From assembly GCA_002412795.1 (NCBI GenBank), contig DHVS01000032.1:27577-91576 (forward strand): a stretch of 64,000 nucleotides of DNA, read 5' to 3'. Below the pieces are notes generated by a model. That model saw only the letters and a list, made by a program, of their open reading frames with translations, did not search any database and was not told where the DNA came from. Positions 7,760-56,147 of this stretch are shown here, piece by piece. The stretch's first letter is position 1, and every line of letters begins with the position of its first letter. Source of the DNA: a bacterium UBP2_UBA5202 (GTDB taxonomy: Bacteria > Edwardsbacteria > AC1 > EtOH8). A program made the translations under genes and the position numbers.

Positions 7760-7771
7760 CTTGATAGCAAT

Positions 7772-8335
7772 ATGACGGAAAACAGCAATATAGCATTTGA
7801 CCAGATAGTCCAGCGATACGATAAGCGGCTTTTTAATTTGCTTTTTCGTTTGACGGGCGATTATGACCTGGCCCAGGACCTGGCCCAGGAAGTTTTCCTG
7901 ATCGCTTACAAGGAGTACTCCAAGTTCCGGGGCGAATCCGATTTCTTTACCTGGCTTTATCGGATAGCGGTGAACCATCACCGCCGGTATTTAAGGAAAA
8001 AGAAGGTGCTGTCTTTCTTCGGCCTGGGTGAGAGAACTCCGGAGGAAGAGGTATCCGACCCCGGGGCTCTGGATCAGATGGAAAAGATAGAAAATTTATC
8101 CCAGGACAAGGCGGTCCGGGAAGCGGTGGCCGGGCTCCCGGCGGAATTCAGGGAAACAGTGGTGCTGTTTTACTTTGAGGACCAGGCCTGCGACGATATC
8201 GCCAAAATTTTGGACTGCTCCCCGGGCACCGTAAAATCACGCTTGTGGCGGGGCCGCCAGATCCTGGCTCAAAAGCTTAACGGCTTGAAGGCCGCCAATA
8301 ATCAGGGAGGAAAAAATGAACTGCAAACAAATTGA
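7772..8335 (+). CDS. RNA polymerase ECF (sigma-70 family, sigma-24) factor
   Basis: Region 2 (LAQEVFLIAYKEYSKF..WLYRIAVN) and region 4 HTH (CDDIAKILDCSPGTVKSRLWRGR). Confidence 0.85.
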   Translation: MTENSNIAFDQIVQRYDKRLFNLLFRLTGDYDLAQDLAQEVFLIAYKEYSKFRGESDFFTWLYRIAVNHHRRYLRKKKVLSFFGLGERTPEEEVSDPGALDQMEKIENLSQDKAVREAVAGLPAEFRETVVLFYFEDQACDDIAKILDCSPGTVKSRLWRGRQILAQKLNGLKAANNQGGKNELQTN

Positions 8336-10708: not shown

Positions 10709-10729
10709 GGATAAGGTTTGACCGGACAT

Positions 10730-10770
10730 AAAAAGCCCCCCGCCAAAGGCGGGGGGCTTTTTTGTTTTTT
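10730..10770. terminator. Bidirectional rho-independent terminator
   Basis: AAAAAGCCCCCCGCC-AAAG-GCGGGGGGCTTTTTTGTTTTTT between convergent genes. Confidence 0.8.
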
Positions 10771-10782
10771 ATCTTCCGAAAT

Positions 10783-11961: not shown

Positions 11962-12014
11962 GGGCTTTATTCCTCCTGTATTTTTGGGTTTGTATGATTC
12001 GCCGTAATGGTTTT

Positions 12015-13604: not shown

Positions 13605-13620
13605 TGTTTTAAATCTTTAT

Positions 13621-14118
13621 TTATCGGTTGTTGCCCAAAAACAGGTAGGGCCGCCACCGCTGGTCCGGCAGCCCCAGATGATATTGGATGAAAGTGATAT
13701 AATGGGGATTTTTGGGTTTGCGCAACAGGTTCATTTTTATCCGGTTTAAGCTGAGATCTCCCTTTTTGTTGTTGCAGGCCACGCAGGCGCAGACCAGGTT
13801 CTCCCAGCTGTCCTCCCCGCCCTGGCTTTTGGGAATGACGTGATCGGCGGTCATGGCCCCCTGGGTGGTGCCGCAGTACTGGCAGGTCCGGTTGTCGCGC
13901 CGGACGATGTTCTGCTTGCTCAACCGGACGTTCTGGCGGGGCCGTTTGATGTAACAGTTGAGCCGGACCACGCTGGGCACAGTGAATTTCTGACGAAGGC
14001 TGCGCACCAAATGTTCGCTTTGTTCAACCACCTCGGCCTTCTGGCGGTAAAGCATCAGCAGGGCCCGGCGGGCATTGCAGACCGAGAGCGGTTCATAGTT
14101 CTGGTTAAGCACCAGCAC
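13621..14118 (-). CDS. HNH endonuclease family protein
   Basis: CQYCG..ADHVIPKSQGG..WENLV.ACVACNNKK HNH motif. Confidence 0.75.
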   Translation of the reverse strand: MLVLNQNYEPLSVCNARRALLMLYRQKAEVVEQSEHLVRSLRQKFTVPSVVRLNCYIKRPRQNVRLSKQNIVRRDNRTCQYCGTTQGAMTADHVIPKSQGGEDSWENLVCACVACNNKKGDLSLNRIKMNLLRKPKNPHYITFIQYHLGLPDQRWRPYLFLGNNR

Positions 14119-14144
14119 CTGCCGGTTAAGGCCGTTATGTAGGA

Positions 14145-14597
14145 CTACTGCTGCTGAGTTCCACCCTCCTTATGCTCAAAGTTGATTCTATGAGTATAAA
14201 TGTTGAACGGAAAGTATATCTCCACCGTATATCTGATCTCCATCTCCAATCCCTCGGAGGTCCTGGTCATATGTTCCAGGAAATATTGTTTGGCAAGTTC
14301 CAGATATTCCTTTTCTTGTTCCGGAGTCTCCGGTTGGTAGAAAAACTTTTTGCCGTCATCCCCGATTACTTGATAAAAATAATCACCGCTGATCGGAATT
14401 TTATCAAGTAGGGCGTTTTCGGATAGTTTAATGGCAATGCTGATGTCTGACTCGGAATTGGCCGATAGCACCGCCTCCTTGATCTTTTCCTTGATATCGG
14501 CAAAGCGAATATAGGGCAACAATATTACGATGGACATATATAAGGCAAAGCCCACCAATATCCACAGTATCCATTTGACTATTCTCGGCATTGGCAC
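14145..14597 (-). CDS. Hypothetical membrane-anchored protein
   Basis: N-terminal TM helix (IVKWILWILVGFALYMSIVILL); no recognisable motif. Confidence 0.4.
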   Translation of the reverse strand: MPMPRIVKWILWILVGFALYMSIVILLPYIRFADIKEKIKEAVLSANSESDISIAIKLSENALLDKIPISGDYFYQVIGDDGKKFFYQPETPEQEKEYLELAKQYFLEHMTRTSEGLEMEIRYTVEIYFPFNIYTHRINFEHKEGGTQQQ

Positions 14598-14769
14598 CTC
14601 CCGGATAAAAATATGAGCACAAGCGTTGATACTTGTGCCCTGAATGTCTAAATATCTTACGCTTGTTGAATTGAATTGTTGACCGGTTTGTGTAAAACCG
14701 ACAAGCGCGGCTATAGCCCCGGATTAAATCTGGCTTGCCCGACAAAGTCCGCCAAATGCGGACGAAATC

Positions 14770-14847
14770 TGGTGGACCTGAGGGGAATCGAACCCCTGAC
14801 CTCCTGACTGCCAGTCAGGCGCGCTACCAAAACTGCGCTACAGGCCC
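14770..14847 (-). tRNA. tRNA-Ala (anticodon GGC) with encoded CCA
   Basis: Reverse complement folds as a cloverleaf GGGCCTG..anticodon loop CTGGCAG..TTCGATT T-loop..CAGGTCC-ACCA; G3:U70 alanine identity pair. Confidence 0.85.
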
Positions 14848-14934
14848 GTCTAAAAAACTAAACAGATTGTAAGTTTACCAAAAAAACCGGCTTAAGTCAA
14901 GATGTAAATGAAGGATATGGGAATTATTGGGTTT

Positions 14935-15870
14935 TTAAACCGCCAGCATCCTTTCCAAAGCTTCCCTGGCTTTTTCCGCCATCTCTTCCGGCAGCCCTAT
15001 CTCATTTTCACCGTTCTCCAAAGCCCAGGCCACCTTGGCCAGGTTGATCATTTTCATGTTTTGGCACACCGCGTGCCGGGCCAGAGGATATATCCCTTTG
15101 CCGGGATGACTTTGGCTAAGTTGTTCCACCAGTCCCATCTCTGTCCCTATTATCCACTCACTGACCCCGCTTTGTTCGCTGACCGCCTTGACCATCCCCG
15201 AAGTGGAGGCCGCTTCATCGGCCAGCTCCACCACCTCCGGCCGGCACTCGGGGTGCACTATCAGCCGGGCGCCGGGATGTTCCTCCCGGGCGGCCTTCAC
15301 ATCTTCTGCCGTGAAACGATTGTGCACAAAGCAGAACCCCGGCCACAGTATCAGTTCCCGCCCGGACATTTTGGCGGTATAGGAACCCAGGTTCCTGTCC
15401 GGCACGAACAGTATCTGCCGGTCGCGGGGCAGGGAGTTCACCACCTTCACCGCATTGGAGGAAGTGCAGCAGATATGGCTCTGGGCCTTGACCGCCGCCG
15501 AACTGTTGACATAGGCCACCGCCAGCGGATCGCCATATTGTTTTTTGGCGGCGATCAGTGCCTCGGCCGTGATCATGTCGGCCATGGGGCAGCCGGCGTT
15601 CCGGTCCGGCATCAGCACTTTTTTCCCGGGATTCAGCAGCTTGGCGCTCTCGGCCATGAAGTGCACCCCGCAAAAGACTATGATACCTGCCTTGGTCTGG
15701 GCCGCGGCCTGGGCCAGGGCCAGTGAATCGCCCAGGAAATCGGCGATCTTCTGCACCTCCAGGGTCTGGTAATTGTGAACCAGGAAGACCACATCCTTTT
15801 GCCTTTTCAGCCCGGCTATCACGGTGTAAAGTTCTTCCGGCGGTAGTTTTTGGTATTCTTCAAGCGTCAT
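14935..15870 (-). CDS. nadA: Quinolinate synthase A
   Basis: Conserved NadA motifs across all three repeats incl. HICCTSS and VHPEC; 311 aa. Confidence 0.9.
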   Translation of the reverse strand: MTLEEYQKLPPEELYTVIAGLKRQKDVVFLVHNYQTLEVQKIADFLGDSLALAQAAAQTKAGIIVFCGVHFMAESAKLLNPGKKVLMPDRNAGCPMADMITAEALIAAKKQYGDPLAVAYVNSSAAVKAQSHICCTSSNAVKVVNSLPRDRQILFVPDRNLGSYTAKMSGRELILWPGFCFVHNRFTAEDVKAAREEHPGARLIVHPECRPEVVELADEAASTSGMVKAVSEQSGVSEWIIGTEMGLVEQLSQSHPGKGIYPLARHAVCQNMKMINLAKVAWALENGENEIGLPEEMAEKAREALERMLAV

Positions 15871-17027
15871 TTTAGTTTAGCCCCATCCAGCACTAGTTGA
15901 TTGAATATTTGTTGCTGAGCTTCGTCCATAAACCCTATCTCCACCGGCAGCACCAGCAACGGCTTGCCGAGATCAAGACCGGGCGGAAGTTTCACCGCGT
16001 CTTTTTCGGTGGTCAGCAGGCAGTCGCACTCCTCTGCCTTCCCGGCAATTTCCTTCAGTTGATCACGGGAATAGTTGTGATGGTCGGGGTATTTCAGATG
16101 GGCGGTAAAAGAAATCCCTGCCTGCCTGACGCTTTGTTCGAATGACCCCGGGCTGGCAATGCCGGAGAACAAAATGACCCTGGAGCTCTTTAGTGCTTCC
16201 ATGCTGGGAGTGGACCTGTCCGCAAATCTATAAGGCTGTCCGGTCTTATGCCGGGTCTTAAACATCGCGGCTTTTGAATTTTGAATTTTGAATTCTGAAT
16301 TCAGGTTGTTGCCCCTGGTCATCACCACGGCCTCCGCCCGGCGCAGCGCACTGACAGGCTCCCGCAGCATCCCGGCCGGCAGCAGCCAGCCGTTGTCATA
16401 AGGTCTCTGGCTGTCCAGCAGGACGATGTCCAGATCGCGCTTCAGCCGCAGGTGCTGGAAGCCGTCGTCCAGCACTATGACCTGCGCCCCCATCTCCGCG
16501 GCCTTCCCCGCCCCGGCCACCCGGTCCTTGCCGACGATGATCATGGCCCCCGGTTTCCCCTTCGTGCCGAGAAGCCGCAAGGCCATCAGAAACGGCTCAT
16601 CCCCCGACTCATCGGCCTTACAAAATATCGAGATCCCATCACTGACTACCAGTGATTTTGATTTTTGATTTCTTGCCCTGAGCTGCCAGGCTGAGCATGC
16701 CGAAGCCGATGCCGAAGGGCTGCTCTCTGCCTTTCTCTTGTAGCCCCGCGAAAGTATCGCCGTTCTCAGGCCATTGTCCATCAGCATCCTGGCGATATAA
16801 ATCGCCATGGGAGTCTTGCCGGTGCCGCCGGCCACTATGTTGCCAATGGATATGACCGGGACCGCAGCCTTATGGCTCCGGAACAAACCTGCCCTATAGG
16901 CGCCCGCCCTCAGCTCCATCATCAACCCGTAAAGCAGGGAGACCGGCCAAAGGAAAGCGATCTTTATGATATCTGAAAAATTCATTGCCCTATTAGGATA
17001 ACCCAAACTGCCCAAAAAAACAAGCAA
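15867..17027 (-). CDS. lpxK: Tetraacyldisaccharide 4'-kinase (lipid A biosynthesis) with a low-complexity insertion
   Basis: VPVISIGNIVAGGTGKTP P-loop typical of LpxK; SRGYKRK..GDEP region carries an extra Ser/Ala-rich insert; ATGA overlap with nadA. Confidence 0.75.
   Translation of the reverse strand: MLVFLGSLGYPNRAMNFSDIIKIAFLWPVSLLYGLMMELRAGAYRAGLFRSHKAAVPVISIGNIVAGGTGKTPMAIYIARMLMDNGLRTAILSRGYKRKAESSPSASASACSAWQLRARNQKSKSLVVSDGISIFCKADESGDEPFLMALRLLGTKGKPGAMIIVGKDRVAGAGKAAEMGAQVIVLDDGFQHLRLKRDLDIVLLDSQRPYDNGWLLPAGMLREPVSALRRAEAVVMTRGNNLNSEFKIQNSKAAMFKTRHKTGQPYRFADRSTPSMEALKSSRVILFSGIASPGSFEQSVRQAGISFTAHLKYPDHHNYSRDQLKEIAGKAEECDCLLTTEKDAVKLPPGLDLGKPLLVLPVEIGFMDEAQQQIFNQLVLDGAKLK
16262..16292. 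repeat. Heptamer microsatellite (TTTTGAA)x3 plus TTCTGAATTC inside lpxK coding sequence
   Basis: Direct read: ttttgaattttgaattttgaattctgaattc. Confidence 0.6.
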
Positions 17028-23190: not shown

Positions 23191-26100
23191 TTATCTTAGC
23201 AGCACCATCCTTTGGGTAAGGCTGGTCCCTTCAAAATTCAGCTGGTAAAAATACACCCCGGCCGGCATCATCCTTCCCTGGCTGTCGTCGCCCTTCCAGG
23301 TCAGGCTGTAAGCTCCGCTTTGTTTTTGACCCTGGTCTAAAGTATTTACCCTCCGTCCGCAGATATCGTAGACATTTAGCGATACCGCTCCTGGTTTGTG
23401 CAGGGCATACTTGATTACAACCGCACCCGAGGAGGGGTTGGGATGACAGGGCATCAACTGCAGCTTATCGTAGACCAGACCTCCGCTTACCGCCATTACC
23501 GGGCCGTGCCAGGTCACCTGCCCGTTCAGGTCCTTGTCCCCCAGCCGGTAATAGTAAGTGGTGTTGGGCAATACCTCCGCATCGGTGTAGCTGTAGCTTC
23601 TGCCCACCGAGGATCCGCCCTCGGCCTCAATGGTTTTTATGTTTTGGAAATCTTCGGTGGGGCTGATTGAGCGCTCTATCAGCCATTGATAGTTGTCTTT
23701 CTCGCTGGCGGTTTGCCAGATCAATGTTATCCCCTCGTCCCCGCTCTGGCAGGCAAATTCAGAAAGTTCCACCGCCAAAGGCGTGGCCATAGCCCGGGGC
23801 GAAACCCCGGCAGCCAAGCTGTTGAATTGGTAGAAATAGGGATACTTGGCCACCGGGGCCTTGGAATCTTTGCCGATGTTGTTGGTGGTGGGGAAGGCGT
23901 TCCAGGAATGCTCGTTGGCCTCGTTGTTGCAGACCACCAGATATTTGAAGACATTGCCTACGGTATATTTCAAATAGGCGAACGGCACCTGGACCTCCAG
24001 GTAATTATATTTATTTATGCTGTCCAGCGACAAATAGCTGGTGTTGTATGAAGCTATGGAGTCCACCCAGGTCTTGCTGCCGGTGGATTTTTTCAGCACC
24101 GCGGTGGTTCCGTTCTCTATTATCAGGCAGAAATCCGGCCGGAAAGCGGGATCGAAACCGGAACAGGAATCCCCGGCATTATAGGTGCAGGTGGAATCGG
24201 CTCCGCCGGCCCGGGTGTCGAAATAAATGAACATGTCGCCGGCGGTTCGCCAATCGCAGCGGCTGTATCCCAGATAGAGATTGGATGCATCCCAAGTGGT
24301 GAACAGGGTGTCGCCGAGACGGATGCCTATCCTTTCGCTCTTGGTGAAATCGTTTACGCAGCCGTATGTGTAGCCCAGCCTGATCGTGTGGGGGGTGACC
24401 GTGTCGCCGGTGGCAATGATTCTCGGCTCGTTGCCCAAGGTACCCCATCTTACGGGTGAGCTCTCGTCGCCAGCTTTCAGGGCAAATATCAGGGTGTCGC
24501 CCGGAGCGAAGCCGAAGACATTTTTCTTTTCCCGGACATCCACGTTTGCCGGCACCCAAGCCTGATAATAGGTCATTCCGGTATCAATAAAATCTTCCTC
24601 GGAGCTCATCTTGCCCAAATCCGAGGCGGAGGCATTGTACTTGGTGTATTTTAACCAGTATTTACTGGCTTTTTCGGCCGCGTTGTCGTCGCTGACGGCA
24701 GTCCAGGAAAGCTCAACTGTGCCCTCGACGGTTCCGGTATAAACAGAATCCACCAGATCCACGATCGGCTCCGGCTCCACGTTAAAGCCCTGGTAGGCCA
24801 GGATCCGCCGGGTCAGCTCCGAGGCGGTGCTGGGAAATATGCCGTTTGTCAGTGAGCCGATGGAAAATGTCAGGTAGACGTTGTTGTGGACGGAAGCCTT
24901 GGTTCCCTTGTAATAGTCACCGTAGGAGGTGGCCCGGCCGTAGGTGATCTTGCCGGGGCCTTCGCTGGTCATGAGAAGGTTTGAGCCTGAAGCATACGGC
25001 TCTATGATGTCCACCGAATTGTCTGGCCCCTGTTGGAAAGGATAATCGAACATCATGCCATCGGTAAAGGTTCCGGCCAGGCCGTAGATCTTCTGGATGT
25101 TTCCGGTGGCGGCCGGGTTGCCGGGCCCGACATACTTGGAGCCGAACCTGGAGAACAGGGTGGTGGTGTTGTACATCTGCCCGAAGTCGTTGCCAGCCAT
25201 TATCAGGCACTTCAGGCTGTCGTCGGCGAAGGACACCAGGGAATCAAGCTGCTCCGGCTGGATGACTCCGGCTGTGCTGCCATCCTCGGCGTAACCCAGG
25301 TCCACCAGGCAGAGATCATAGGCTTCGCTGCTGTTAAGCTTGCCCTGCTTGCGCCAGGCGTATTCCAAAATGTCGGTGTTGGTGATCTGAACGAACTGCT
25401 GATTGGGGATGTTGCGTTCCTTGAAGGCCAGCACATAGGCCGAGTCCAGAGGGATATACAGGGATTCCGGCTCGGCGATGGGATCTTCGTTCCAGCCGGG
25501 GGTTGATGGATCATCGTAGCTCTTCTTGGGGTGGTACCAGATCTTCCGCCCCGATTCCTTGTCCTTGCTGATGTGGTAGTTTATGTCCACTTTCTTGAGG
25601 GTGTCCTGCTCCGCCTTGGCCGAATTGGTGAAATACTGGCCGAAGATGTCGCCCAGCCCGGTGGTGCGGCTGGAGTCCATCCAGGCAACCGAGAACCATT
25701 CCCCGAAGCGGCAGACCGCCGGGGCCCGCTGGCCGTTGGCCGGGTTTTGGTTGACCAGCTTGACCTTCTCCCACCTGGCGGCGTAGTCAAAATAGCGGGA
25801 CTTGATCTCATAACGATCCGAGCCCATCGAGTCAGCCCAGCTGACCCAGAAGGAGACATTGTCGGCATTCATAACGATGGAGGGTATCCGGCAGGCCACC
25901 GGATAGACCGGCAGGTTAACCTGAAAATTCTTGTCGATGGGCTTGGCATCCGGGTCAAAGCGTTGGGCATAAATATTACCCAGAACATTGCCGGTATAAT
26001 TTATCCAGGCGATGGTGAAAAAGCCGGTGTCATTGGCCGCGATGGCCGGGGTGAGGTGCGGCACTTCGACGTTCTCGCTGATCCGGGCTTCGTTGGTCAG

Positions 26101-26823
26101 GGGGCTGAGGTCGGCCTTGTAGTAGCGCAAGAAAATGCTGGGCCGGGATGGGCGGTGGTCCTGCCAGGTTATGGCGATGTACTTCTCGCTATAGCTTACC
26201 GCCGGCAGCACCTGATGGTACTTGTCGGGATCCTGGCTGATCTTGATATCGTCGCTGATCGGCTTGCAGTCGTAGTCGAACAGCCGGGCATAGATGTCCC
26301 AATCGCCGTCCCGTTCATCCTGCCAGACCACCACGAACCGCTGGTTAATGGGGTTGACCGCCACCTTGGGAAACTTGGCGTGCTTGGCTACTACCCGATT
26401 GATACGGAAATCCTCGGACAGCGGGAAACCGTCGGGCTTCATCTTGTGGCCGTAGATCTGCCAGAAGGGATCCTTGTAGATCGAGTCCTGCCACACCACA
26501 AAGACATAATCCCCCGACTTACCGGCCAAGTCAGGAGCCTTTTGGTCCCGGTTGTCCTGGGCCTTAGTGTTAACCAGAAAGGATGGCGTCAGCGGGGCGG
26601 GCTTGCGCTGCCACAGGCGGCCGTAGATGTTCCAGTTGCCGTCCCGGCGGTCGGCCCAGACGTAAGTGGAGTTGTAGTCCCGGTCCATCACCGCCGCCGG
26701 CGCCTCCTGGGCGGTCTCGCCGGCATCGTTGTCCCAAAGGAATATCTTGCAGGTGTCTTTGGCGGCCAGGGCCGCAGAGGACACGGCCATTACCGCGAAC
26801 AATAGACTTACTATTTTTTTCAC
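23191..26823 (-). CDS. Large secreted protein with repeated beta-propeller-like modules and C-terminal T9SS sorting domain
   Basis: Signal peptide MKKIVSLLFAVMAVSSAALA; repeated VVWQD..WDIY..F motif blocks; C-terminal ..LNVYDICGRRVNTL..GAYSLTWKGDD..GVYFYQL.. (Por/T9SS CTD pattern); 1210 aa. Confidence 0.7.
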   Translation of the reverse strand: MKKIVSLLFAVMAVSSAALAAKDTCKIFLWDNDAGETAQEAPAAVMDRDYNSTYVWADRRDGNWNIYGRLWQRKPAPLTPSFLVNTKAQDNRDQKAPDLAGKSGDYVFVVWQDSIYKDPFWQIYGHKMKPDGFPLSEDFRINRVVAKHAKFPKVAVNPINQRFVVVWQDERDGDWDIYARLFDYDCKPISDDIKISQDPDKYHQVLPAVSYSEKYIAITWQDHRPSRPSIFLRYYKADLSPLTNEARISENVEVPHLTPAIAANDTGFFTIAWINYTGNVLGNIYAQRFDPDAKPIDKNFQVNLPVYPVACRIPSIVMNADNVSFWVSWADSMGSDRYEIKSRYFDYAARWEKVKLVNQNPANGQRAPAVCRFGEWFSVAWMDSSRTTGLGDIFGQYFTNSAKAEQDTLKKVDINYHISKDKESGRKIWYHPKKSYDDPSTPGWNEDPIAEPESLYIPLDSAYVLAFKERNIPNQQFVQITNTDILEYAWRKQGKLNSSEAYDLCLVDLGYAEDGSTAGVIQPEQLDSLVSFADDSLKCLIMAGNDFGQMYNTTTLFSRFGSKYVGPGNPAATGNIQKIYGLAGTFTDGMMFDYPFQQGPDNSVDIIEPYASGSNLLMTSEGPGKITYGRATSYGDYYKGTKASVHNNVYLTFSIGSLTNGIFPSTASELTRRILAYQGFNVEPEPIVDLVDSVYTGTVEGTVELSWTAVSDDNAAEKASKYWLKYTKYNASASDLGKMSSEEDFIDTGMTYYQAWVPANVDVREKKNVFGFAPGDTLIFALKAGDESSPVRWGTLGNEPRIIATGDTVTPHTIRLGYTYGCVNDFTKSERIGIRLGDTLFTTWDASNLYLGYSRCDWRTAGDMFIYFDTRAGGADSTCTYNAGDSCSGFDPAFRPDFCLIIENGTTAVLKKSTGSKTWVDSIASYNTSYLSLDSINKYNYLEVQVPFAYLKYTVGNVFKYLVVCNNEANEHSWNAFPTTNNIGKDSKAPVAKYPYFYQFNSLAAGVSPRAMATPLAVELSEFACQSGDEGITLIWQTASEKDNYQWLIERSISPTEDFQNIKTIEAEGGSSVGRSYSYTDAEVLPNTTYYYRLGDKDLNGQVTWHGPVMAVSGGLVYDKLQLMPCHPNPSSGAVVIKYALHKPGAVSLNVYDICGRRVNTLDQGQKQSGAYSLTWKGDDSQGRMMPAGVYFYQLNFEGTSLTQRMVLLR

Positions 26824-44758: not shown

Positions 44759-45559
44759 ATGTTTAAAAACCTGAGCATTCCCGTTCAAAGGCTGTATGTT
44801 CAGATAACCGCCGCCATCGTCACCAACAGCTACTTTTTGGCGCCTTATCTGAAATACCTGCCCTGCCCCTCGCTGAACTGCTACGCCTGCCCGGCGGCTA
44901 ATTTCGCCTGCCCCATCGGGACCCTGCAGTACTTCGTGATCATCGGGGTCTTCCCGTTCCTGCTGCTGGGAATATTGTTCCTGGTGGGAGGGTTCTTGGG
45001 ACGATGGGCCTGCGGCTACCTGTGCCCCTTCGGATTATTTCAGGATCTGCTGGCCAAAATAAGAAAGGCCAAGCTTGAGATGCCCACCTGGCTGGGCTGG
45101 GGCCGCTATGTCTCTTTGGTCGGCGTGGCCATAATAATTCCGGCCATCACCAAGGAGCCCTGGTTCAGCAAACTCTGCCCGGCCGGAACGCTGGAGGCCG
45201 GGATACCGATAGTGGGCTGGGCCTTCTTCAAGACCAAGGCGCTGGGACAGTATTCAACGATATTGGGCATGACCGGCTGGCTGTTCTGGGTCAAGGTCGG
45301 ACTGCTGGCCGGGACCATCGCGGCCGCCATCTACATCAAGCGTCCCTTCTGCCGGTTCATCTGCCCGCTGGGAGCCATCTTCGGTTTGTTCAACCGGGTC
45401 TCCCTGCTGCAGATCAAGGTGAATCATCACGCCCTGCACCTGCCGGCCGACTGCCGCAAGATCTGTCCGGTGGACATTGATATCAGAAAGGACCCGGTCT
45501 CGGCCAAGTGCATCCGGTGCATGCAGTGCACCAAGTGTCCGGGAGTGTCCCAGAAATAG
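44759..45559 (+). CDS. Membrane-bound 4Fe-4S ferredoxin-type protein (NapH/MauN-like)
   Basis: TM helices plus Cys clusters CPFGLFQDLL, CRFICPLGAIFG, CIRCMQCTKCPG. Confidence 0.7.
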   Translation: MFKNLSIPVQRLYVQITAAIVTNSYFLAPYLKYLPCPSLNCYACPAANFACPIGTLQYFVIIGVFPFLLLGILFLVGGFLGRWACGYLCPFGLFQDLLAKIRKAKLEMPTWLGWGRYVSLVGVAIIIPAITKEPWFSKLCPAGTLEAGIPIVGWAFFKTKALGQYSTILGMTGWLFWVKVGLLAGTIAAAIYIKRPFCRFICPLGAIFGLFNRVSLLQIKVNHHALHLPADCRKICPVDIDIRKDPVSAKCIRCMQCTKCPGVSQK

Positions 45560-45573
45560 CATTGTGAAAAAAG

Positions 45574-45608
45574 AAAAGCCCGAAGGATTTTATCCTTCGG
45601 GCTTTTTG
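45574..45608. terminator. Bidirectional rho-independent terminator
   Basis: AAAAGCCCGAAGGAT-TTTAT-CCTTCGGGCTTTTTG. Confidence 0.8.
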
Positions 45609-45637
45609 TTAGAAGAAAACTACTAAGTACCGGCGAT

Positions 45638-45973
45638 TCACTGCCGCTGGGCCACACGGGCGGCCCAGGTGAAGGCGCCGAAATACCTGCGCCACAGGTC
45701 ATCGGTGGAGGAAAAACTGTTCTCGAACCAGAAATAATCCGCCAGCGCTTCGTACAGCCTGGTCAGCTCTTTCAGCCGCGTTTTGTTCCTGGGGTCATCG
45801 ATGGTCAGCCAAAGCAGTTCCAGCCCGCGTTCGGCTGCCCGGCGGCTGATCCCCTCGTCCCGGCCCCGCCACTTGATGGTCCGCTCCACTTCGCTGCCGA
45901 TGTTGGCCATTTGTCCGGCAAAGGTCAGGGTCTGCCAGCGGCCGGAAGCCAGTTCGCTATGAACGAAACTCAC
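45638..45973 (-). CDS. Hypothetical protein (111 aa)
   Basis: High-GC ORF with ATGA-type overlap to upstream ORF; no confident motif. Confidence 0.35.
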   Translation of the reverse strand: MSFVHSELASGRWQTLTFAGQMANIGSEVERTIKWRGRDEGISRRAAERGLELLWLTIDDPRNKTRLKELTRLYEALADYFWFENSFSSTDDLWRRYFGAFTWAARVAQRQ

Positions 45974-46311
45974 CTGGCCACCAGCCTTTCCACCACCGAG
46001 GCGATGCGCCGCCGGAGTTCCGGATCATCCACCCCGCGGCTGCGGTTGCCCTGCGACGGCCGGAGGTTGATCATGGAGTCGAATTCCAGCCAGTCTTCGC
46101 CTTTCACTTCGGGGTAAAAGTTTATCCCCCACAGGTCGCGCTGGCGCGAACCGGCCTCCAGCAACAGGGCCTCCTCGTCGGAATGCAGCTCGCCGCCGAC
46201 GGCCATCAGGTTCCGTTCCACATCCACCACGGCCTTGACCATGTCGCCGAACCGTTCCTGCGCCAGCTCCTGCAGACGGGCCAGGGTTATTTTTTCACGT
46301 ATGATCTCCAT
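45970..46311 (-). CDS. Hypothetical protein (114 aa; trimmed from the 226-aa track ORF)
   Basis: N-terminal half of the track ORF is low-complexity alternate-frame read-through of the YD-repeat remnant; real start MEIIREKITL at 46311. Confidence 0.35.
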   Translation of the reverse strand: MEIIREKITLARLQELAQERFGDMVKAVVDVERNLMAVGGELHSDEEALLLEAGSRQRDLWGINFYPEVKGEDWLEFDSMINLRPSQGNRSRGVDDPELRRRIASVVERLVAR

Positions 46312-46318
46312 ATGGTAA

Positions 46319-46990
46319 TTATCCCAAATATGTAAGCAAAAAGCAAGCCTGTCCTTGGTAAGCTTGGGAACAATTAAAACGCTCCCAGGCGTTGTCGGCG
46401 GTGACCCGCGCCTTGATGTCATCCGGCAGCCAGGAGGCTCCCGAGCCGAACTTCTGGTCGGTGTCCAGGGCGATGTAGATGTTCTCGTAGTTCCCCTGGG
46501 AGGTGCCGTAAAGATATTTGTGGGTGATCTCGAAGAACAGGAAATTGTCGTTGACGTGGACCTTAAGCGTTCCCATGTCCCGGGCGTCGTCGTGGCCGTC
46601 CCCGCTGGGGGCGGAAGCCAAAAGATCATCGTAGACCTCCACCCTGTCAACCTCGTTCTGGGGGTCCGTGCCGCCGGAGACGGTTACGGTCTTAATGGCA
46701 GATGTGCGCAGGCCCTCTGCGTTGTATATGTAATCGTTGCGGGTGGTGCTGTTGCCCACTGATTGGCTTAGGCGGGTCAGCTTGCCCAGATAGTTGTAAT
46801 GGTAATTCCAGACCCCGTCGTTTACCAGGTTACCGTTGCCGTCGTAGGTGTGGGTGACGCCGTTGGCGGTTTACAGGTGGTTGGTGCCTTGGTAGTAGCT
46901 GTTTTCATAGAGCTGTTAGTGAAAGCCTCGTATCGGGTGGGGCTGAATGTTTGGTATTGATGAGCCTAGTTACGGTGATCCGGTTGCGGA
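46319..46990 (-). pseudogene. RHS/YD-repeat protein remnant with internal stop codons
   Basis: Minus-strand translation gives TANGVTHTYDGNGNLVNDGVWNYHYNYLGKLTRL..YIYNAEGLRTS (YD repeats) interrupted upstream by TAA/TAA stops. Confidence 0.45.
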
Positions 46991-47148
46991 CGACTGCCCC
47001 TCGACGAGCTTTTTGGCGGAGTTGCAGACCTCCAGTCCCAGTTTTTTCTGGCAAAGAAGGCAGAGCATTGCTCATGTTTAGCAATTATTGTTGGATAAGA
47101 CAAACTGTTCACTAGAAAAAATACTTCGCTTTAGGAGGAGCATTTTTG

Positions 47149-48099
47149 CTATTGTACATTAAAAGGCATAAGGTGATCGTCTTTACCTTCTGTTATTTTC
47201 CTAGTATTTTTATTCCTTAAGTCCAATTCATATATATCCCACTTATTATCAATATTTGAAGAATATAATATCATATTTTTACTTAACAGAACTAGATCAA
47301 GGATGAATCCACCGTCATCGATTAGTAATTTTGTTTCACTCTTACTCATATCATAATCATATAACTTGCTAATCTTTTCATCAATCTGAATAACAAATAC
47401 TAAATGGCCATTAGTATAAACCATAGTTACAACATCGTAAGGCTTGTCAATTAATACTTTGTCTTCTTTTGTACATAAATTCATTTTACATATCATTTGT
47501 TTGTTAACATCATAATATATGAAATTATTATTATCTAACCATTTTGGAGCTATTGGCCCAAGTATGCCTTTTGACACATAATTGCATGAATCCTTTTTAA
47601 AGTCATACAATAATATTCCATTTACATTACCGTATAAAAAGCGTTGTCCATTAGGTGAAAGTGATAGGTTGCCCGGAAAATCAACTGCCTTTGTTAAATA
47701 TTTATAGCTATTGTTTTGTTTTTCATATACGACATTAATGCTATCCGGCTTGCTCAACATCACAATCATCTTGTTTCTATTAATGCTAAACAAATTATGA
47801 CCTGATGCTGCGCTTAATGTAGATAATTTTTCATTGGAAATCATATCGTACTCATATAATACCCTTCTAGGTTGCACTTTTCTCTGTTCATCAAGCATAA
47901 CATATACTCTTTTTTTAAAACATGCTACGTCAACTATAGAATATGAAGTTGATTCATCTAATTTTGATATTATGTATGGTTTATTTTTGTAAACAATAAA
48001 TAATTGGTTTTTGCTTTTATTTATGTATCCATAATTTTCTTTTGCAAAATAAATGGTTCCTTGTGTTAGTATCAATATGCTTAATAATATTTTTCGCAT
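47149..48099 (-). CDS. Candidate immunity protein for the upstream RHS toxin; secreted, possible PD40/TolB-like beta-propeller (start moved to MRKILLSILIL with GAGGAG SD)
   Basis: About 30% GC; signal peptide; SD overlaps the toxin stop codon; WDIYELDLRNKNTRKIT resembles TolB-type repeats. Confidence 0.4.
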   Translation of the reverse strand: MRKILLSILILTQGTIYFAKENYGYINKSKNQLFIVYKNKPYIISKLDESTSYSIVDVACFKKRVYVMLDEQRKVQPRRVLYEYDMISNEKLSTLSAASGHNLFSINRNKMIVMLSKPDSINVVYEKQNNSYKYLTKAVDFPGNLSLSPNGQRFLYGNVNGILLYDFKKDSCNYVSKGILGPIAPKWLDNNNFIYYDVNKQMICKMNLCTKEDKVLIDKPYDVVTMVYTNGHLVFVIQIDEKISKLYDYDMSKSETKLLIDDGGFILDLVLLSKNMILYSSNIDNKWDIYELDLRNKNTRKITEGKDDHLMPFNVQ

Positions 48100-48109
48100 G
48101 TTTCTCCTC

Positions 48110-48972
48110 TCATTCGATTGTTGGTTGTAATATTTCATCAGACGTTTCTTTTGGGATTGATTTTTCATCAATTTTAGGGTTATCTATCAACTCCTCCAAT
48201 ATTTTATCCTCGATTTCTTTTGCCTCCCAAGTGCAATCATTTACGTTGGGATCATCAGTTGTCCTACCGTTTTTTGCAATATAATTCTCGTAGTCTTTTG
48301 GTGTTTGAATATTGGGTTTTGCCATTTCTAGATTATGTGCAAATTCATGCCCTATTGTTGATAAACCACTGCTAGGTTTTATTAACGAATAAATCTGCTT
48401 TTTACCATCAATAACATCATTAAAATATGAAATACCAGGAGCGCTTCCAAATTTCTTTTGTTCAGCTGCATACATGTTTCTCAGTAATACTTCTGCCTTG
48501 TTATTCCTTCTTGCAGCATCATAAATATTTCTAAAGGTTTCGGAACGTAAGTACAATTGTACAACTCGTGCTTGCATTTTAGACCCAACAACGGATACTT
48601 TCATTCCATCTGGATCAACATATTTCAAAGGATTATTCAAACAATAGACATACGGGTTCAACATCTGCGGATTATACAAGAACTTTATATCCGGCACGCC
48701 CTTCAGTAACGGCTCCGGCTGGCTCCATCTGCCCAAACCCGTAGTAAAATACCTGGCTTTTGCGTAATACTGCCCGGTGGCATCGTCCTTTATATGCCCC
48801 GTAAACTTATGGGTATTGCCCGTAGCAACCGTCCCGGCCTCACTGCCGAAAGCCAAATAATCCTGCCGCCACACCACTGCCCCGGTAGCATCGGTCATCA
48901 CTCTGGGACTATTTAGATAATCCGCATGGTAGTAATACGTGCTCCAATTGCGGGAGCAGGGGTGCCTTTTAT
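48110..48972 (-). CDS. Orphan RHS C-terminal cassette: conserved RHS core end plus variable zincin (HExxH) toxin domain; no recognisable start codon or N-terminal shell
   Basis: YYYHADYLNSPRVMTDATGAVVWRQDYLAFGSE..RYFTTGLGRWSQPEP..YVDPDGM (RHS core with DPxG(L/M) site) then AT-rich tip containing HEFAH at 48335-48349. Confidence 0.6.
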
Positions 48973-48974
48973 GT

Positions 48975-49601
48975 TTACTGGGCTGTATACCTGAACACAT
49001 CCCCGAACATAAAATACAGCGCTCCGGCCAGATCCTCCCTGCTCTGCCTTCCCCCGCCTTTCCGCAGGTAATCGTTGATGATCTCGCCCCTGTCGTTCTT
49101 GTAATCATAGGGATGCCGCAGGTTCATCTTGATCCGGCCCACCCGGCCCGACCCGTAGTGCAGGATGACCACCGTCCCGTCCGCCTGCACCTCCTCCACC
49201 AAGCCCACATGGGTGATCTTGTCGTAGCTGTTCTCCAAAGTGTTCTTGAAGAACACCGCGTCGGCCGGCCGGGGCGGCATGTCAACGTATGACAGGTTCT
49301 TGTCCCTTAAGGTAAGGTACAGGGACTCCGAGAGCGGCCGGCCCTGGCGGACGAAATTGTATTTTATCTTGCGGCCCATCACGGCATAAACCCCGTTGAC
49401 ATATCCCGAGCAGTCGTTCTTGAACCTTTTGTCCATCTCGCTCAGCCGCTTCACGCCGATAAGACTCTTGGCATAATTGACCAAAGCCTGCCTGGACTGC
49501 ATCTCCTCGCCGGCCGGCTCCTTTCTTTGGACATAGGCCGGGGAGCAGGACACTACCAGCCCGGCGGTCAAGATCATCAGACCATGACGCCAGTATCTCA
49601 T
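48975..49601 (-). CDS. NlpC/P60 (C40) family cell-wall peptidase, lipoprotein
   Basis: Lipobox LVVSC; catalytic Cys (NDCSGYVNGVY) and His (ITHVGLV). Confidence 0.7.
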   Translation of the reverse strand: MRYWRHGLMILTAGLVVSCSPAYVQRKEPAGEEMQSRQALVNYAKSLIGVKRLSEMDKRFKNDCSGYVNGVYAVMGRKIKYNFVRQGRPLSESLYLTLRDKNLSYVDMPPRPADAVFFKNTLENSYDKITHVGLVEEVQADGTVVILHYGSGRVGRIKMNLRHPYDYKNDRGEIINDYLRKGGGRQSREDLAGALYFMFGDVFRYTAQ

Positions 49602-49852
49602 GCCTTCTTCCCAAAAGGAACATATTTCTTGAACCAGTGGAAACCGAACTTCTCCATCATTTTCAGATACCCGTCATTGCCTTCCGGCATGTAGTCTGCG
49701 CTGTAGTGCAGGCCGAAGCAGCGCTGGGCCGGGTTGATGTATCCCTGTTTTTGGATCCTGGCCAGGGCCCTTTTGACCAGGGCCGGGCCGCCGGTATTGC
49801 GGCAAACCCGCTCCATGTCCTTGAGCCTTTCCGGGGTAATGGCCACTTTCAT
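49598..49852 (-). CDS. Hypothetical small protein, translationally coupled to the NlpC/P60 gene
   Basis: 84 aa; 4-nt overlap with downstream gene. Confidence 0.3.
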   Translation of the reverse strand: MKVAITPERLKDMERVCRNTGGPALVKRALARIQKQGYINPAQRCFGLHYSADYMPEGNDGYLKMMEKFGFHWFKKYVPFGKKA

Positions 49853-49861
49853 TCCGGGATA

Positions 49862-50542
49862 TTATTCGTCAAAAGCTTTGAACAGTTCCTTGTCGCTCAG
49901 TTCCCTGTATCTTTCGGAATGGACCATGACCTTGACCGGAAGTTTTTTACGGGGCACCGGTTTTGCCTTGGGGTAACCGATACATAAAAGGACCACTGGA
50001 AAGACTCCCCGGGGCAGCTTGAACATTTTCTTGAGGGCCGGGAAGAATTCCAGCACCGTCCCGATGTAACAGCAGCCCAGGCCCAAAGCGTCGGCCGCGG
50101 TGCAGATGTTCTGGGCGCTGATGATGGTGTCCTGGAACGAGATCCAGAAATGACGGAAGGAGCTGGTTGCGGTGAAGGGCGCATCTGATAGCTTCGACCA
50201 GCGCTCCAGCCTTCGCCAGTCTATGCAGAACAGCAGATTGACCGGGGCCTGGCCCACAAAGGGCTGTCCGCACAACTTGGCCAGCTTGGCGTTGGCGGAC
50301 CGGTTCTCTATTTTGATGATGGAATAAGGCTGCAGGTTTCCCCCGGTCGGGGCCCGCACCCCGGCTTCGAGTACCTGCTCCAGTACTTTGGCCGGGATCT
50401 TCTTGCCTCTAAAAATGCGGCAGCTGCCCCTTTCCAGCAGCAGCCTGATGGTGGGATCGGCGGCCCGGGATGCTTTCTGCTCCGTTACTCCGTGATGTGA
50501 CTTCATTTTATTGGTTCTCCTCCCTGGCTGCGGTTTTTTCAA
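49862..50542 (-). CDS. Nitroreductase family protein
   Basis: RRS.R.F...I....L..VLEAGVRAPTGGNLQPY motif typical of NAD(P)H nitroreductases. Confidence 0.7.
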   Translation of the reverse strand: MKKPQPGRRTNKMKSHHGVTEQKASRAADPTIRLLLERGSCRIFRGKKIPAKVLEQVLEAGVRAPTGGNLQPYSIIKIENRSANAKLAKLCGQPFVGQAPVNLLFCIDWRRLERWSKLSDAPFTATSSFRHFWISFQDTIISAQNICTAADALGLGCCYIGTVLEFFPALKKMFKLPRGVFPVVLLCIGYPKAKPVPRKKLPVKVMVHSERYRELSDKELFKAFDE

Positions 50543-55540: not shown

Positions 55541-55954
55541 TTATATCTTAATGCTTTTCTGCTCCAGACCCGTCTCTTTGGCCATCATTTCAAAATGCCG
55601 GTCGGCATGCAGCAGCAGGCAGCGGTACTTTATGGCCAGACGGGCAATGATCAGATCGGTGGTTGGTATCCTTAGACCGGCCCTTATCAGGCGATGGCCC
55701 AATTGGGCAACCATCTTCCATTCCTCCTCCGGGAACGGCAGATAATGTAAGGAGCCCAGCTCGCTGGAGAGATCTTGATACTCCCCCTCGTTTCGGGCTC
55801 CCTGTAAAAGTTCTGCCAGGATCATTCCGGCGGTGGCCGCCCGGTCATGCTCCAGCAGGTCCCCCACCAATGCTTGGGCCTGCGTTGAACCCTTGGGCCT
55901 TAAGGCTAGGATCCAGGCCGAGCTGTCTATCAGGACCAATCCGCTACCGGGCAT
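55541..55954 (-). CDS. vapC: PIN-domain toxin VapC
   Basis: N-terminal LIDSSAW with conserved acidic residues; 137 aa; overlaps the antitoxin gene. Confidence 0.75.
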   Translation of the reverse strand: MPGSGLVLIDSSAWILALRPKGSTQAQALVGDLLEHDRAATAGMILAELLQGARNEGEYQDLSSELGSLHYLPFPEEEWKMVAQLGHRLIRAGLRIPTTDLIIARLAIKYRCLLLHADRHFEMMAKETGLEQKSIKI

Positions 55955-56147
55955 TTCTGGATGCCTCCAGCTTGTTCAGCGTAAGGTTCAGTCCGGTCCG
56001 GCCCAGGCGCTGCTTAAGGCTGACCATCCTTTTCTGGCGCACCAGTTCCTCCAGGGAAAGGTTTAACACCTGCCGCTTGGTCTTGGCGCCGGTCAGCCGA
56101 AAGGCTTCCTTCAACAAATGTTCGTCCAATTCAACCAATGTTTTCAT
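55944..56147 (-). CDS. vapB: VapB-type antitoxin
   Basis: 67-aa ORF overlapping vapC by 11 nt. Confidence 0.5.
   Translation of the reverse strand: MKTLVELDEHLLKEAFRLTGAKTKRQVLNLSLEELVRQKRMVSLKQRLGRTGLNLTLNKLEASRNAR

What the first reader, a model, noticed from the sequence alone, without database searches (positions are those of the whole stretch)
46319..49852. Degenerate polymorphic-toxin locus: orphan RHS C-terminal cassette with a zincin toxin tip, AT-rich immunity gene, and a YD-repeat pseudogene
On the minus strand there is an NlpC/P60 lipoprotein gene. About 35 nt later, with no plausible start codon, comes the conserved end of an RHS core: YYYHADYLNSPRVMTDATG..VWRQDYLAFGSE..RYFTTGLGRWSQPEP..YVDPDGM. 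This runs straight into a 160-aa C-terminal domain containing HEFAH (48335-48349), a zinc-metallopeptidase signature. GC drops sharply exactly at the tip. The next gene has its GAGGAG SD overlapping the toxin stop codon and encodes a secreted, roughly 30% GC, repeat protein. This is the classic toxin/immunity arrangement. Further downstream is a broken YD-repeat fragment and two small unknown ORFs. This is the hallmark of a displaced rhs-CT/rhsI module that is exchanged by recombination at the YYYHAD region. The zincin tip is an uncommon RHS payload.
Basis: partly seen in the sequence, partly recalled or inferred. Interest (0 to 1): 0.65.

Follow-up and report, generated by a model that had tools for sequence, protein, structure and literature searches.

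The report
Decayed rhs toxin island, zincin tip
This is the broken remnant of a bacterial "rhs" toxin locus in an uncultured TA06-group bacterium: a 3.4-kb strain-specific insertion that keeps an undeliverable toxin tip (a new small family of zinc-protease-like domains) and an intact exported protector gene.

Summary
On the minus strand, 35 nt after a conserved CHAP/NlpC-like lipoprotein gene, there is an rhs core end (TIGR03696, 1e-17; PLKYVDPDGM). It runs into a 163-aa tip with HEFAH, followed by an SD-led 316-aa signal-peptide protein at 28% GC, then an internal rhs shell fragment with an in-frame stop.

New findings:
- All of this, plus DUF5674 and a 111-aa ORF, is a 3,361-bp island (45611-48971). 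It sits between the CHAP stop codon and its terminator. The site is empty in three related lineages.
- Sister strains carry the island with a different low-GC cassette. The left breakpoint lies inside the YYYH(A/C)DYL codons.
- In four of the five loci the partner is a PD40-type beta-propeller with a signal peptide, so the toxin probably acts in the periplasm.

Zincin tips on RHS proteins have been known since 2012, so the payload is not unusual in kind. Verdict: an orphan rhs toxin/immunity module in a decayed island, and a new member of a known kind.

The parts
45611..48971 (-). Whole island (3,361 bp), inserted between the CHAP stop codon and the bidirectional terminator hairpin.
   Evidence: Homology with empty-site TA06 relatives L034 and L036 stops at 48972/48985 and resumes at 45610/45607. 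Only 6-25 nt separate these points in the relatives. The site is also empty in L040-L046.
46517..48914 (-). Strain-variable inner segment: core end, tip, immunity gene and the first part of the shell fragment. Sister strains have an unrelated 891-nt, 31.5% GC cassette here.
   Evidence: blastn of the window against L007/L008, junction alignments and GC values.
48599..48940 (-). rhs core end (C-terminal plug / aspartyl-protease region), 5'-truncated, with no start codon of its own.
   Evidence: PF03527 at 1.3e-6. TIGR03696 at 1e-17, full length. 77-83% aa identity to four core copies in the L037 rhs array; equals aa 1780-1893 of its 2085-aa main RHS.
48602..48631 (-). PLKYVDPDGM: the PxxxxDPxG(L/M) boundary and autocleavage motif between shell and toxin.
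   Evidence: Read from the sequence. Motif definition from PMC8636562.
48113..48601 (-). 163-aa toxin tip, a zincin-like HExxH domain. The stop codon is at 48110-48112.
48335..48349 (-). HEFAH motif (H85, E86 and H89 of the tip).
   Evidence: Sequence. Invariant in all five family members.
48104..48109 (-). GAGGAG Shine-Dalgarno sequence, directly after the toxin stop codon and 4 nt before the immunity ATG.
   Evidence: Sequence.
47149..48099 (-). Putative immunity gene: 316 aa, N-terminal signal peptide, diverged PD40-type beta-propeller, 28% GC.
   Evidence: BLASTP 1e-7 to the PD40 partner in L004. 20.8 bits against an HMM of three PD40 partners, versus at most 8.9 bits for 200 shuffles. Those partners pass the Pfam PD40 threshold. 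Only a self hit in the 5.8-billion-protein database.
46358..46897 (-). Internal rhs shell fragment (pseudogene): last YD repeats plus a non-YD insert domain, truncated at both ends, with an in-frame TAA at 46871-46873.
   Evidence: tblastn to aa 1282-1466 of the L037 main RHS: 57% identity, E 9e-54. The insert part is 73% identical. GC3 is 0.80.
45970..46311 (-). DUF5674 gene (113 aa). Part of the island, function unknown.
   Evidence: Pfam PF18924 at 1.3e-36. Absent from empty-site relatives. 96% identical in sister strains.
45638..45973 (-). 111-aa ORF overlapping the DUF5674 stop by 4 nt. Part of the island, function unknown.
   Evidence: No Pfam, NCBIfam or PADLOC hit. 99% identical in sister strains.
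45574..45606 (.). Flank: 15-bp perfect hairpin terminator. In empty-site relatives it sits directly after the CHAP gene.
48975..49601 (-). Flank: conserved CHAP/NlpC-like lipoprotein gene. Not part of the island.

Best explanation
The region is a 3.36-kb strain-specific island in a candidate-division-TA06-like bacterium. It is the decayed remnant of an rhs polymorphic-toxin locus.

It contains:
- a 5'-truncated orphan rhs module: the last ~114 codons of the RHS core with the PxxxxDPxG(M) cleavage motif, then a 163-aa zincin-like HExxH toxin tip;
- a translationally adjacent gene for an exported PD40-type beta-propeller, the cognate immunity protein;
- a second, non-adjacent internal piece of an rhs shell, which is a pseudogene;
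- two genes of unknown role (DUF5674 and a 111-aa ORF).

The tip and immunity gene (GC3 about 0.25, against 0.80 for the host) were acquired horizontally as a cassette. They were joined to resident rhs sequence by recombination inside the conserved core.

Inferred mechanism. In intact relatives the tip sits inside a Sec-exported RHS shell, is released by aspartyl autoproteolysis at DPxG(L/M), and acts as a zinc metallopeptidase on an envelope or periplasmic substrate of competitor cells. The periplasmic beta-propeller blocks it. Here the shell and the N-terminal delivery region are gone, so the toxin cannot be delivered. The element most likely persists as an immunity gene, read through from the CHAP operon and translated from its own SD, plus a silent toxin reservoir for future recombination.

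Shown: the anatomy, the island boundaries, the strain polymorphism, family membership of the core, conserved toxin-partner pairing, and the zincin-like predicted fold.
Inferred: protease activity, periplasmic target, immunity function and expression.
For: Core end:
- TIGR03696 at 1e-17 and PF03527.
- 77-83% identity to the cores of a classic rhs array, L037 (main 2085-aa RHS plus at least 3 orphan/immunity pairs, sawtooth GC).

Island and polymorphism:
- Empty sites in L034, L036 and L040-L046.
- Sister strains L007/L008 diverge at 48915, inside the YYYH(A/C)DYL codons, and rejoin at 46516, inside the rhs insert domain. In between they carry a different low-GC cassette with a 133-aa multi-TM protein behind a GAGGAG SD.

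Toxin family:
- P0003, P0005, P0006 and P0007 all follow RHS cores and DPDG(K/R).
- P0003 is the fourth orphan in a long array whose other tips are Amidase_3, NLPC_P60, M23 and SLT.
- P0006 follows a 1210-aa signal-peptide RHS.
- HExxH is invariant.
- AF2 gives pLDDT 88.8 and pTM 0.85.

Partner:
- PD40 propellers with N-terminal signal or lipobox sequences in L004, L005 and L006.
- The window protein is homologous to them.

Expression and assembly:
- GC3 contrast.
- On the minus strand, only a weak 5-bp terminator-like match (46393-46378) lies between the CHAP gene and the strong hairpin at 45606.
- The same junctions were assembled independently in the ENA and Logan data (100% identical over 45500-50000), and a JGI/IMG contig of 138,368 bp encodes the same proteins.
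Against: - No full-length rhs lies in the 64-kb window, and none could be sought in the rest of the genome. The 'reservoir' role therefore has no demonstrated recipient.
- The order of the rhs pieces (core end first, mid-shell piece second) is not that of one simply truncated gene. It needs at least two events.
- The third zinc ligand is not identified. Candidates are E92, D103 and E137.
- The AF2 model rests on only 5 sequences.
- The partner in L003 is not demonstrably homologous.
- No activity, expression or neutralisation data exist.
- The related periplasmic zincin toxin VgrG2b showed no peptidoglycan hydrolase activity (PMC6899460), so the substrate is open.
Confidence: 0.8

Rival explanations
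1. The stub is a live, self-standing toxin gene. It would be translated from an internal start (ATG 48898, TTG 48856, or ATG 49000 overlapping the CHAP gene end) as a 248-296-aa protein and used without an RHS shell, for example released by lysis or an unknown exporter.
For: The 277-codon frame from YYYH to the stop is intact in AT-rich DNA (P about 1e-6 for the tip alone). Gene callers in three pipelines call it. It sits behind an operon, with only a weak 5-bp terminator-like match (46393-46378) before the strong hairpin at 45606.
Against: No signal peptide or known delivery domain precedes the core. The possible starts lack convincing SD sequences. In intact relatives the tip is carried by a Sec-exported 1210-aa RHS or lies in orphan arrays. 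The sister strain has already lost the equivalent toxin and kept only the downstream small membrane protein. That pattern is expected if immunity, not toxin, is under selection.
Confidence: 0.1
2. The pair works as an intracellular toxin-antitoxin-like module, as reported for the Salmonella orphan rhs element (PMC7043789), rather than in inter-bacterial competition.
For: There is a precedent for orphan Rhs modules behaving as type II TA-like systems (title and abstract of PMC7043789). The toxin and partner genes are tightly linked.
Against: The partner carries an N-terminal signal peptide, and its relatives carry signal or lipobox sequences. It is therefore exported and cannot neutralise a cytoplasmic toxin. 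The tip has no export signal, so the two proteins would be in different compartments.
Confidence: 0.04
3. The HExxH domain is not a protease toxin. The motif would serve another metal-dependent activity, as in YbeY-type RNases or HExxH oxygenases, or a non-catalytic role. The beta-propeller would then be an accessory or target-binding protein rather than an immunity protein.
Confidence: 0.12
4. Assembly chimera: the 1.5-kb low-GC stretch comes from another organism and was mis-joined in a metagenome assembly.
For: There is an abrupt GC change (0.56 to 0.28) in a MAG-derived sequence.
Against: Identical sequence across both junctions was assembled independently in the ENA ERZ27315058 and Logan SRR1313274 data, and a JGI/IMG contig of 138,368 bp encodes the same toxin-cluster and immunity proteins. 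The reading frame runs seamlessly from GC-normal core into the AT-rich tip. The same sawtooth GC pattern is seen in the L037 rhs array.
Confidence: 0.02

Closest known systems
Orphan rhs-CT/rhsI modules of Enterobacteria, e.g. Salmonella Typhimurium LT2 and Dickeya/E. coli (PMC3967940, PMC3150448)
   Same: A 5'-truncated rhs piece begins in the conserved core and lacks its own start and delivery region. It is followed by a variable toxin tip and a tightly linked immunity gene with deviant GC. Homology to full-length rhs cores allows recombination. Alleles differ between strains, with the breakpoint in the core.
   Different: It is not downstream of a full-length rhs. It sits alone in a 3.4-kb island inserted after a housekeeping lipoprotein gene. 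It is accompanied by a second, out-of-order rhs shell fragment. The host is an uncultured TA06-type bacterium, with no T6SS context in the window.
Zincin-like RHS toxin tips: Tox-MPTase1-5, Tox-HopH1/NleD-like, Peptidase_M91 (PMC3482391, PMC13556075)
   Different: No member of the present family reaches any Pfam model (best hits Astacin 0.032 and M91 0.43 in single members). Its own signature is GHExxHxxE ... TxxDY ... CT. Zhang et al. list no immunity family for Tox-MPTase1-5, whereas here there is a conserved PD40 propeller partner.
VgrG2b C-terminal metallopeptidase and its immunity protein PA0261 of Pseudomonas aeruginosa (PMC6899460; PDB 6h56)
   Different: It is delivered as a VgrG fusion by a T6SS, not in an RHS shell. 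There is no detectable sequence similarity. Homology between its immunity protein (PA0261) and the PD40 partner was not tested here.
The rhs array on JGI contig Ga0074195_1000001 (locus L037)
   Same: It is the closest sequence relative of both rhs pieces: core 77-83% aa identity, shell/insert piece 57-73%. It shows the intact layout: main RHS, immunity, then at least 3 orphan/immunity pairs with sawtooth GC.
   Different: Its tips differ (the main tip looks NlpC/CHAP-like). None is the HExxH family and none of its immunity genes is a PD40 propeller. It is intact rather than decayed.

Membership tests
RHS / YD-repeat polymorphic toxin (C-terminal part) | RHS repeat-associated core domain (TIGR03696 / PF03527) immediately before the variable tip | tested here: met
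   TIGR03696 at 1e-17 and 64.4 bits (cut-off 32.5), full 1-76/76. PF03527 at 28.5 bits (cut-off 27.9)..
RHS / YD-repeat polymorphic toxin (C-terminal part) | PxxxxDPxGL motif separating shell from toxin | tested here: met
   PLKYVDPDGM at 48602-48631, with M in place of L. Motif as defined in PMC8636562.
RHS / YD-repeat polymorphic toxin (full-length, deliverable) | YD-repeat shell of more than 1000 aa and an N-terminal secretion/delivery region in the same ORF | tested here: not met
   Only two pieces exist in the window, equal to aa 1780-1893 and 1282-1466 of a 2085-aa relative. The 64-kb window has no other rhs sequence.
Orphan rhs-CT/immunity module | 5'-truncated rhs beginning in conserved core sequence, without its own translation start, followed by tip and immunity gene with deviant composition | tested here: met
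   No start codon between the CHAP stop and YYYH. GC3 is 0.26/0.25 against 0.80 for the host.
Orphan rhs-CT/immunity module | Located downstream of a full-length rhs gene that shares the core sequence | tested here: not met
   The upstream neighbour is a CHAP lipoprotein gene, and there is no full-length rhs in the window. The rest of the genome could not be searched.
Orphan rhs-CT/immunity module | Allelic exchange between strains with the breakpoint in the conserved core | tested here: met
   Sister strains L007/L008 share 91.5-97% identical flanks. They diverge inside the YYYH(A/C)DYL codons (48915) and rejoin inside the rhs insert domain (46516)..
Zincin metallopeptidase fold | Invariant HExxH on a helix preceded by a beta-sheet, with structural similarity to known zincins | tested here: met
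Zincin metallopeptidase fold | Third zinc ligand (Glu, Asp or His) and catalytic activity | tested here: inconclusive
   Invariant acidic candidates are E92 (HExxHxxE), D103 (TxxDY on the next helix, aspzincin-like) and E137. Activity is not testable here.
Tox-MPTase1-5 / Peptidase_M91 / other Pfam zincin toxin families | Match to the family profile at or near its threshold | tested here: not met
   The window tip has no family hit at E up to 10. Single other members hit Astacin at 0.032 and M91 at 0.43 only. PDB profile search best E is 0.12, to an unrelated protein.
PD40 / TolB-like beta-propeller (immunity partner) | Pfam PD40 repeat above threshold | tested here: inconclusive
   The window protein has no PD40 hit, only weak TolB/Dpp5/Str_synth hints. 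It is homologous to partners that do pass PD40: BLASTP 1e-7, and HMM 20.8 bits against at most 8.9 for shuffles. No structure prediction was run for it.
Toxin/immunity pair | The partner specifically neutralises the toxin | not testable with these tools
   The only support is conserved adjacency in 4 loci with homologous partners.

The most novel reading that the evidence does not exclude
The tip would define an undescribed zincin toxin family (GHExxHxxE...TxxDY...CT, possibly aspzincin-like). It would be confined to uncultured FCB-type phyla (TA06, WOR-3 and relatives), carried by Sec-exported, T6SS-independent RHS proteins, and act in the competitor's periplasm. A periplasmic PD40 beta-propeller would inhibit it, a toxin/immunity fold pairing I found no description of in the papers searched. 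In addition, the island would show that rhs cassettes can be seeded into a naive chromosomal site, the stop-codon/terminator gap of a housekeeping gene, without any full-length rhs nearby.
Probability: 0.45. Interest if true: 0.4.

Novelty: new member of a known kind. Interest (0 to 1): 0.3.

Why it matters
The locus is a clean natural example of rhs cassette turnover in a lineage with no cultured representative. Empty site, occupied site and replaced allele are all available, at 79-97% flank identity. This suggests that TA06/WOR-3-type bacteria fight neighbours with envelope-directed RHS toxins. It does not change the understanding of how RHS systems work.

Tried and rejected
- Single-sequence AF2 of the tip gave pLDDT 40 and was unusable. 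The 5-sequence alignment fixed this.
- Foldseek against the PDB gave no significant match. afdb50 was not available.
- PDB sequence and profile searches of the tip gave nothing.
- The genome-contig scan did not contain this genome, so a search for a full-length rhs elsewhere failed. The metagenome-contig scan also lacked the source samples, but it found the informative L037 array.
- The L011 (Gemmatimonadetes) RHS tip, first suggested as a sixth family member, matches only around HExxH (5.7 bits). It was rejected.
- The L003 partner protein could not be shown to be homologous to the window immunity protein.
- I first thought the sequence after the YD repeats in the 146-aa ORF was foreign (glucodextranase-like). 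This was rejected: it is an insert domain that is part of full-length RHS proteins of this clade.
- The promoter scan was uninformative in AT-rich DNA.
- No direct or inverted repeats flank the island or the cassette.
- PADLOC gave no hits for any island protein. No paper mentions DUF5674.


Full report
**1. What is in the sequence**

All genes discussed are on the minus strand.

- A 208-aa lipoprotein with a weak CHAP/NlpC-P60 signature lies at 48975-49601.
- Its TAA stop is followed by 35 nt with no in-frame start codon. Then comes STYYYHADYLNSPRVMTD..., continuing to ...NNPLKYVDPDGM.
- This stretch matches PF03527 (1.3e-6) and the whole of TIGR03696, the 'RHS repeat-associated core domain' (1e-17, positions 1-76 of 76).
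- PLKYVDPDGM (48602-48631) fits the PxxxxDPxGL motif that separates the RHS shell from the toxin (PMC8636562).
- The frame runs on for 163 codons (48113-48601) containing HEFAH (48335-48349).
- It stops at TGA, followed directly by GAGGAG, four bases and the ATG (48099) of a 316-aa protein. That protein has a signal peptide (MRKILLSILILTQGTIYFA).

Composition:
- GC falls from 0.56 to 0.35 (tip) and 0.28 (partner gene), then returns to 0.58.
- GC3 is 0.80 in the flanking CHAP gene and 0.26/0.25 in the tip and partner.
- The fall begins about 90 nt before the tip, within the last ~30 core codons.

The open frames are not chance: P is about 1e-6 and 4e-14 given the base composition.

**2. The downstream 'YD pseudogene' is an internal piece of an rhs gene**

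A metagenome scan with the rhs peptides found a classic rhs array on a 2.68-Mb contig (L037).
- It has a 2085-aa main RHS, an immunity gene, and at least three orphan/immunity pairs with a sawtooth GC profile.
- Window 48940-48599 equals aa 1780-1893 of that main RHS (77% identity; 83% to its second orphan).
- Window 46897-46358 equals aa 1282-1466 (57%, E 9e-54). This includes a non-YD insert domain (APSGDGHDDARDMG...IYIA(L/M)DTDQ) that is 73% identical.
- The whole 146-aa ORF plus the YD repeats before it, with an in-frame TAA at 46871-46873, is therefore one rhs shell fragment truncated at both ends.
- No other rhs sequence exists in the 64-kb window.
- The two pieces are in the 'wrong' order for a single truncated gene: core end first, mid-shell second. 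They are best read as the remains of two successive modules of an array.

**3. The whole thing is a strain-specific island**

The window sequence was assembled identically in the ENA and Logan data, and a JGI/IMG contig of 138,368 bp encodes the same proteins. This argues against a chimera.

The organism is close to MAGs named candidate division TA06:
- the SNF transporter falls in the same 90% cluster;
- flank DNA identity to GCA_016235665.1 is 87-90%.

In that MAG (L034), in GCA_030655055.1 (L036) and in a third lineage (L040-L046, 79% flank identity), the CHAP gene is followed within 6-25 nt by a hairpin terminator and the convergent Fer4_5 gene.

Homology with the window ends at 48972 and resumes at 45610. 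The island is therefore 45611-48971 (3,361 bp), inserted exactly between the stop codon and the terminator.

The island also contains DUF5674 (45970-46311) and a 111-aa ORF (45638-45973). These and the shell fragment have host-like GC3 (0.78-0.81), so they probably came from within the lineage. The tip and partner gene are foreign.

No repeats or mobility genes mark the island.

**4. Strain polymorphism at the rhs core**

Sister strains (L007, L008; flanks 91.5-97% identical) have the island, but its inner 2.4 kb (48914-46517) is replaced by 891 nt of unrelated 31.5% GC DNA.
- The left breakpoint lies inside the YYYH(A/C)DYL codons.
- The right breakpoint lies inside the rhs insert domain. Both junctions are thus in conserved rhs sequence.
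- The sister cassette holds a 78-codon ORF remnant and a 133-aa multi-TM protein behind a GAGGAG SD. This looks like a decayed toxin with a membrane-type immunity gene.

It also suggests that the immunity gene outlives the toxin.

**5. The tip is a new small family of zincin-like RHS toxins**

The word-indexed search of 5.8 billion proteins found only the protein itself. A full HMMER pass over 1.84 billion representatives found two true relatives, P0003 and P0005. A profile search added P0006 and P0007, the latter from a WOR-3 MAG.

All four relatives follow an RHS core and DPDG(K/R):
- P0003 is the fourth orphan of a long array behind a 1903-aa RHS. The other tips in that array are Amidase_3, NLPC_P60, M23, SLT and DUF5675.
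- P0006 follows a 1210-aa signal-peptide RHS, with one frameshift in that assembly.

Invariant residues are Y17, S20, F23, Y27, D28, R31, G84-H85-E86-x-x-H89-x-x-E92, T100, D103-Y104, C123-T124, E137 and D145.

Structure and profile evidence:
- No Pfam, NCBIfam, PADLOC or PDB sequence match exists for any member.
- With the 5-sequence alignment, AF2 gave pLDDT 88.8 and pTM 0.85: three strands, then the HExxH helix, then three more helices.
- Foldseek found nothing.

The fold assignment is therefore 'zincin-like, no close relative'. The third ligand is unresolved. E92, D103 (TxxDY, reminiscent of the aspzincin GTxDxxYG, from my own knowledge) and E137 are candidates.

Zincin tips on RHS proteins are well documented (Tox-MPTase1-5, HopH1/NleD-like, M91; PMC3482391, PMC13556075).

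**6. The partner**

In L004, L005 and L006 the next gene encodes a 356-395-aa protein that passes the Pfam PD40 threshold and begins with a signal or lipobox-like sequence.

The window's 316-aa protein is a diverged homologue:
- BLASTP 1e-7 over 196 residues;
- 20.8 bits against a 3-sequence HMM, versus at most 8.9 bits for 200 shuffles.

The L003 partner is similar in size and has a signal peptide, but it is not demonstrably homologous.

A conserved, exported partner implies that the toxin's site of action is the periplasm or envelope. The company it keeps in L003, a set of cell-wall hydrolase tips, points the same way. As a caution, the periplasmic zincin toxin VgrG2b has no peptidoglycan hydrolase activity (PMC6899460), so the substrate remains open.

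**7. How it most likely works**

In intact relatives (inferred):
- the RHS is exported by Sec (signal peptide in L006);
- the tip is enclosed in the shell and released by aspartyl autoproteolysis at DPxG(L/M) (PMC8636562);
- the tip cleaves an envelope substrate in the neighbour's periplasm;
- the producer's propeller inhibits it.

In this window the shell and N-terminal region are missing, so the toxin cannot be delivered.

The immunity gene is intact and has its own SD. On the minus strand, only a weak 5-bp terminator-like match (46393-46378) lies between the CHAP operon and the strong hairpin at 45606. It can therefore be expressed by read-through, which is also an inference.

The most likely present function is protection against neighbours that deploy this toxin, plus a silent toxin copy. 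A TA-like role is unlikely because toxin and partner would be in different compartments. A stand-alone toxin role lacks any export signal.

**8. Comparison and verdict**

The module works like, and meets most defining features of, an orphan rhs-CT/immunity module. It fails the criterion 'downstream of a full-length rhs' within the window, and the rest of the genome could not be searched.

The tip meets the sequence and fold features of a zincin but belongs to no described family. The partner is a PD40-type propeller by transitive homology.

Novelty: a new member of a known kind. Interest is modest. The island, empty-site and replaced-allele series is a neat illustration of rhs turnover in an uncultured phylum, and the toxin/propeller pair is a reasonable target for experimental work. 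Nothing here contradicts current understanding.

Noticed in passing
window 49598-50542 (minus strand); TAA at 49862-49864: The nitroreductase gene is split by a nonsense codon: FDE*YPGMKV here, against FDEKYPGMKV in L007 and L034, whose proteins are 302-309 aa. The 84-aa ORF at 49598-49852 is its C-terminal part, not an independent gene. This is either a pseudogene or a sequencing error.
   Followed up: partly
window 45638-46311 (minus strand): DUF5674 (113 aa) and a 111-aa ORF overlap by 4 nt and have host-like GC3 (0.78-0.81). Yet they belong to the inserted island and are absent from all empty-site relatives. No PADLOC, NCBIfam or literature information exists. They could be another conflict-system pair.
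   Followed up: partly
L004 (JGI 3300031585, Ga0315534_1006663), 49-1870 and 4937-6757: The contig ends repeat at 99.89% identity with an offset of 4,888 bp, suggesting a tandem or circular 4.9-kb unit. The unit has a 332-aa Y1_Tnp-domain protein, then 22 nt later an rhs-CT HExxH toxin of this family, its PD40 partner and two small genes. This may be a transposase-linked vehicle for rhs cassettes.
   Followed up: partly
L003 (JGI 3300048575, Ga0498942_000981), 1-16933: A long rhs orphan array follows a 1903-aa RHS. Its tips include Amidase_3, NLPC_P60, Peptidase_M23, SLT and DUF5675, an arsenal aimed at the cell wall. DUF5675 appears here as an RHS toxin tip.
   Followed up: no
L037 4200-4760 (main RHS aa ~1374-1560); window 46358-46640: RHS proteins of this clade carry a non-YD insert domain inside the shell region (APSGDGHDDARDMG...IYIAMDTDQ...). 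It is conserved at 73% in the window pseudogene. It has no Pfam match and its role is unknown.
   Followed up: partly
window about 55541-56147 (from L001 2710-3316): A VapB/PIN toxin-antitoxin pair lies between the FAD synthetase and aminotransferase genes. It is present in this strain and in L034 but absent in sister strain L007 and in L036, making it a second small presence/absence polymorphism in the same neighbourhood.
   Followed up: no
window 23191-26823 (minus strand): A 1210-aa protein carries a C-terminal FlgD_ig / Por_Secre_tail (T9SS sorting) domain. This indicates an FCB-type organism with type IX secretion, with no link to the rhs island established.
   Followed up: no
L007 10716-11526: The sister-strain cassette has a 78-codon ORF remnant (GWAYFSKDGFGQEKNVARYF...) and a 133-aa protein with several hydrophobic segments behind GAGGAG. 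Neither matches anything in the loci held. It is probably a decayed toxin plus a membrane immunity protein of another family.
   Followed up: partly
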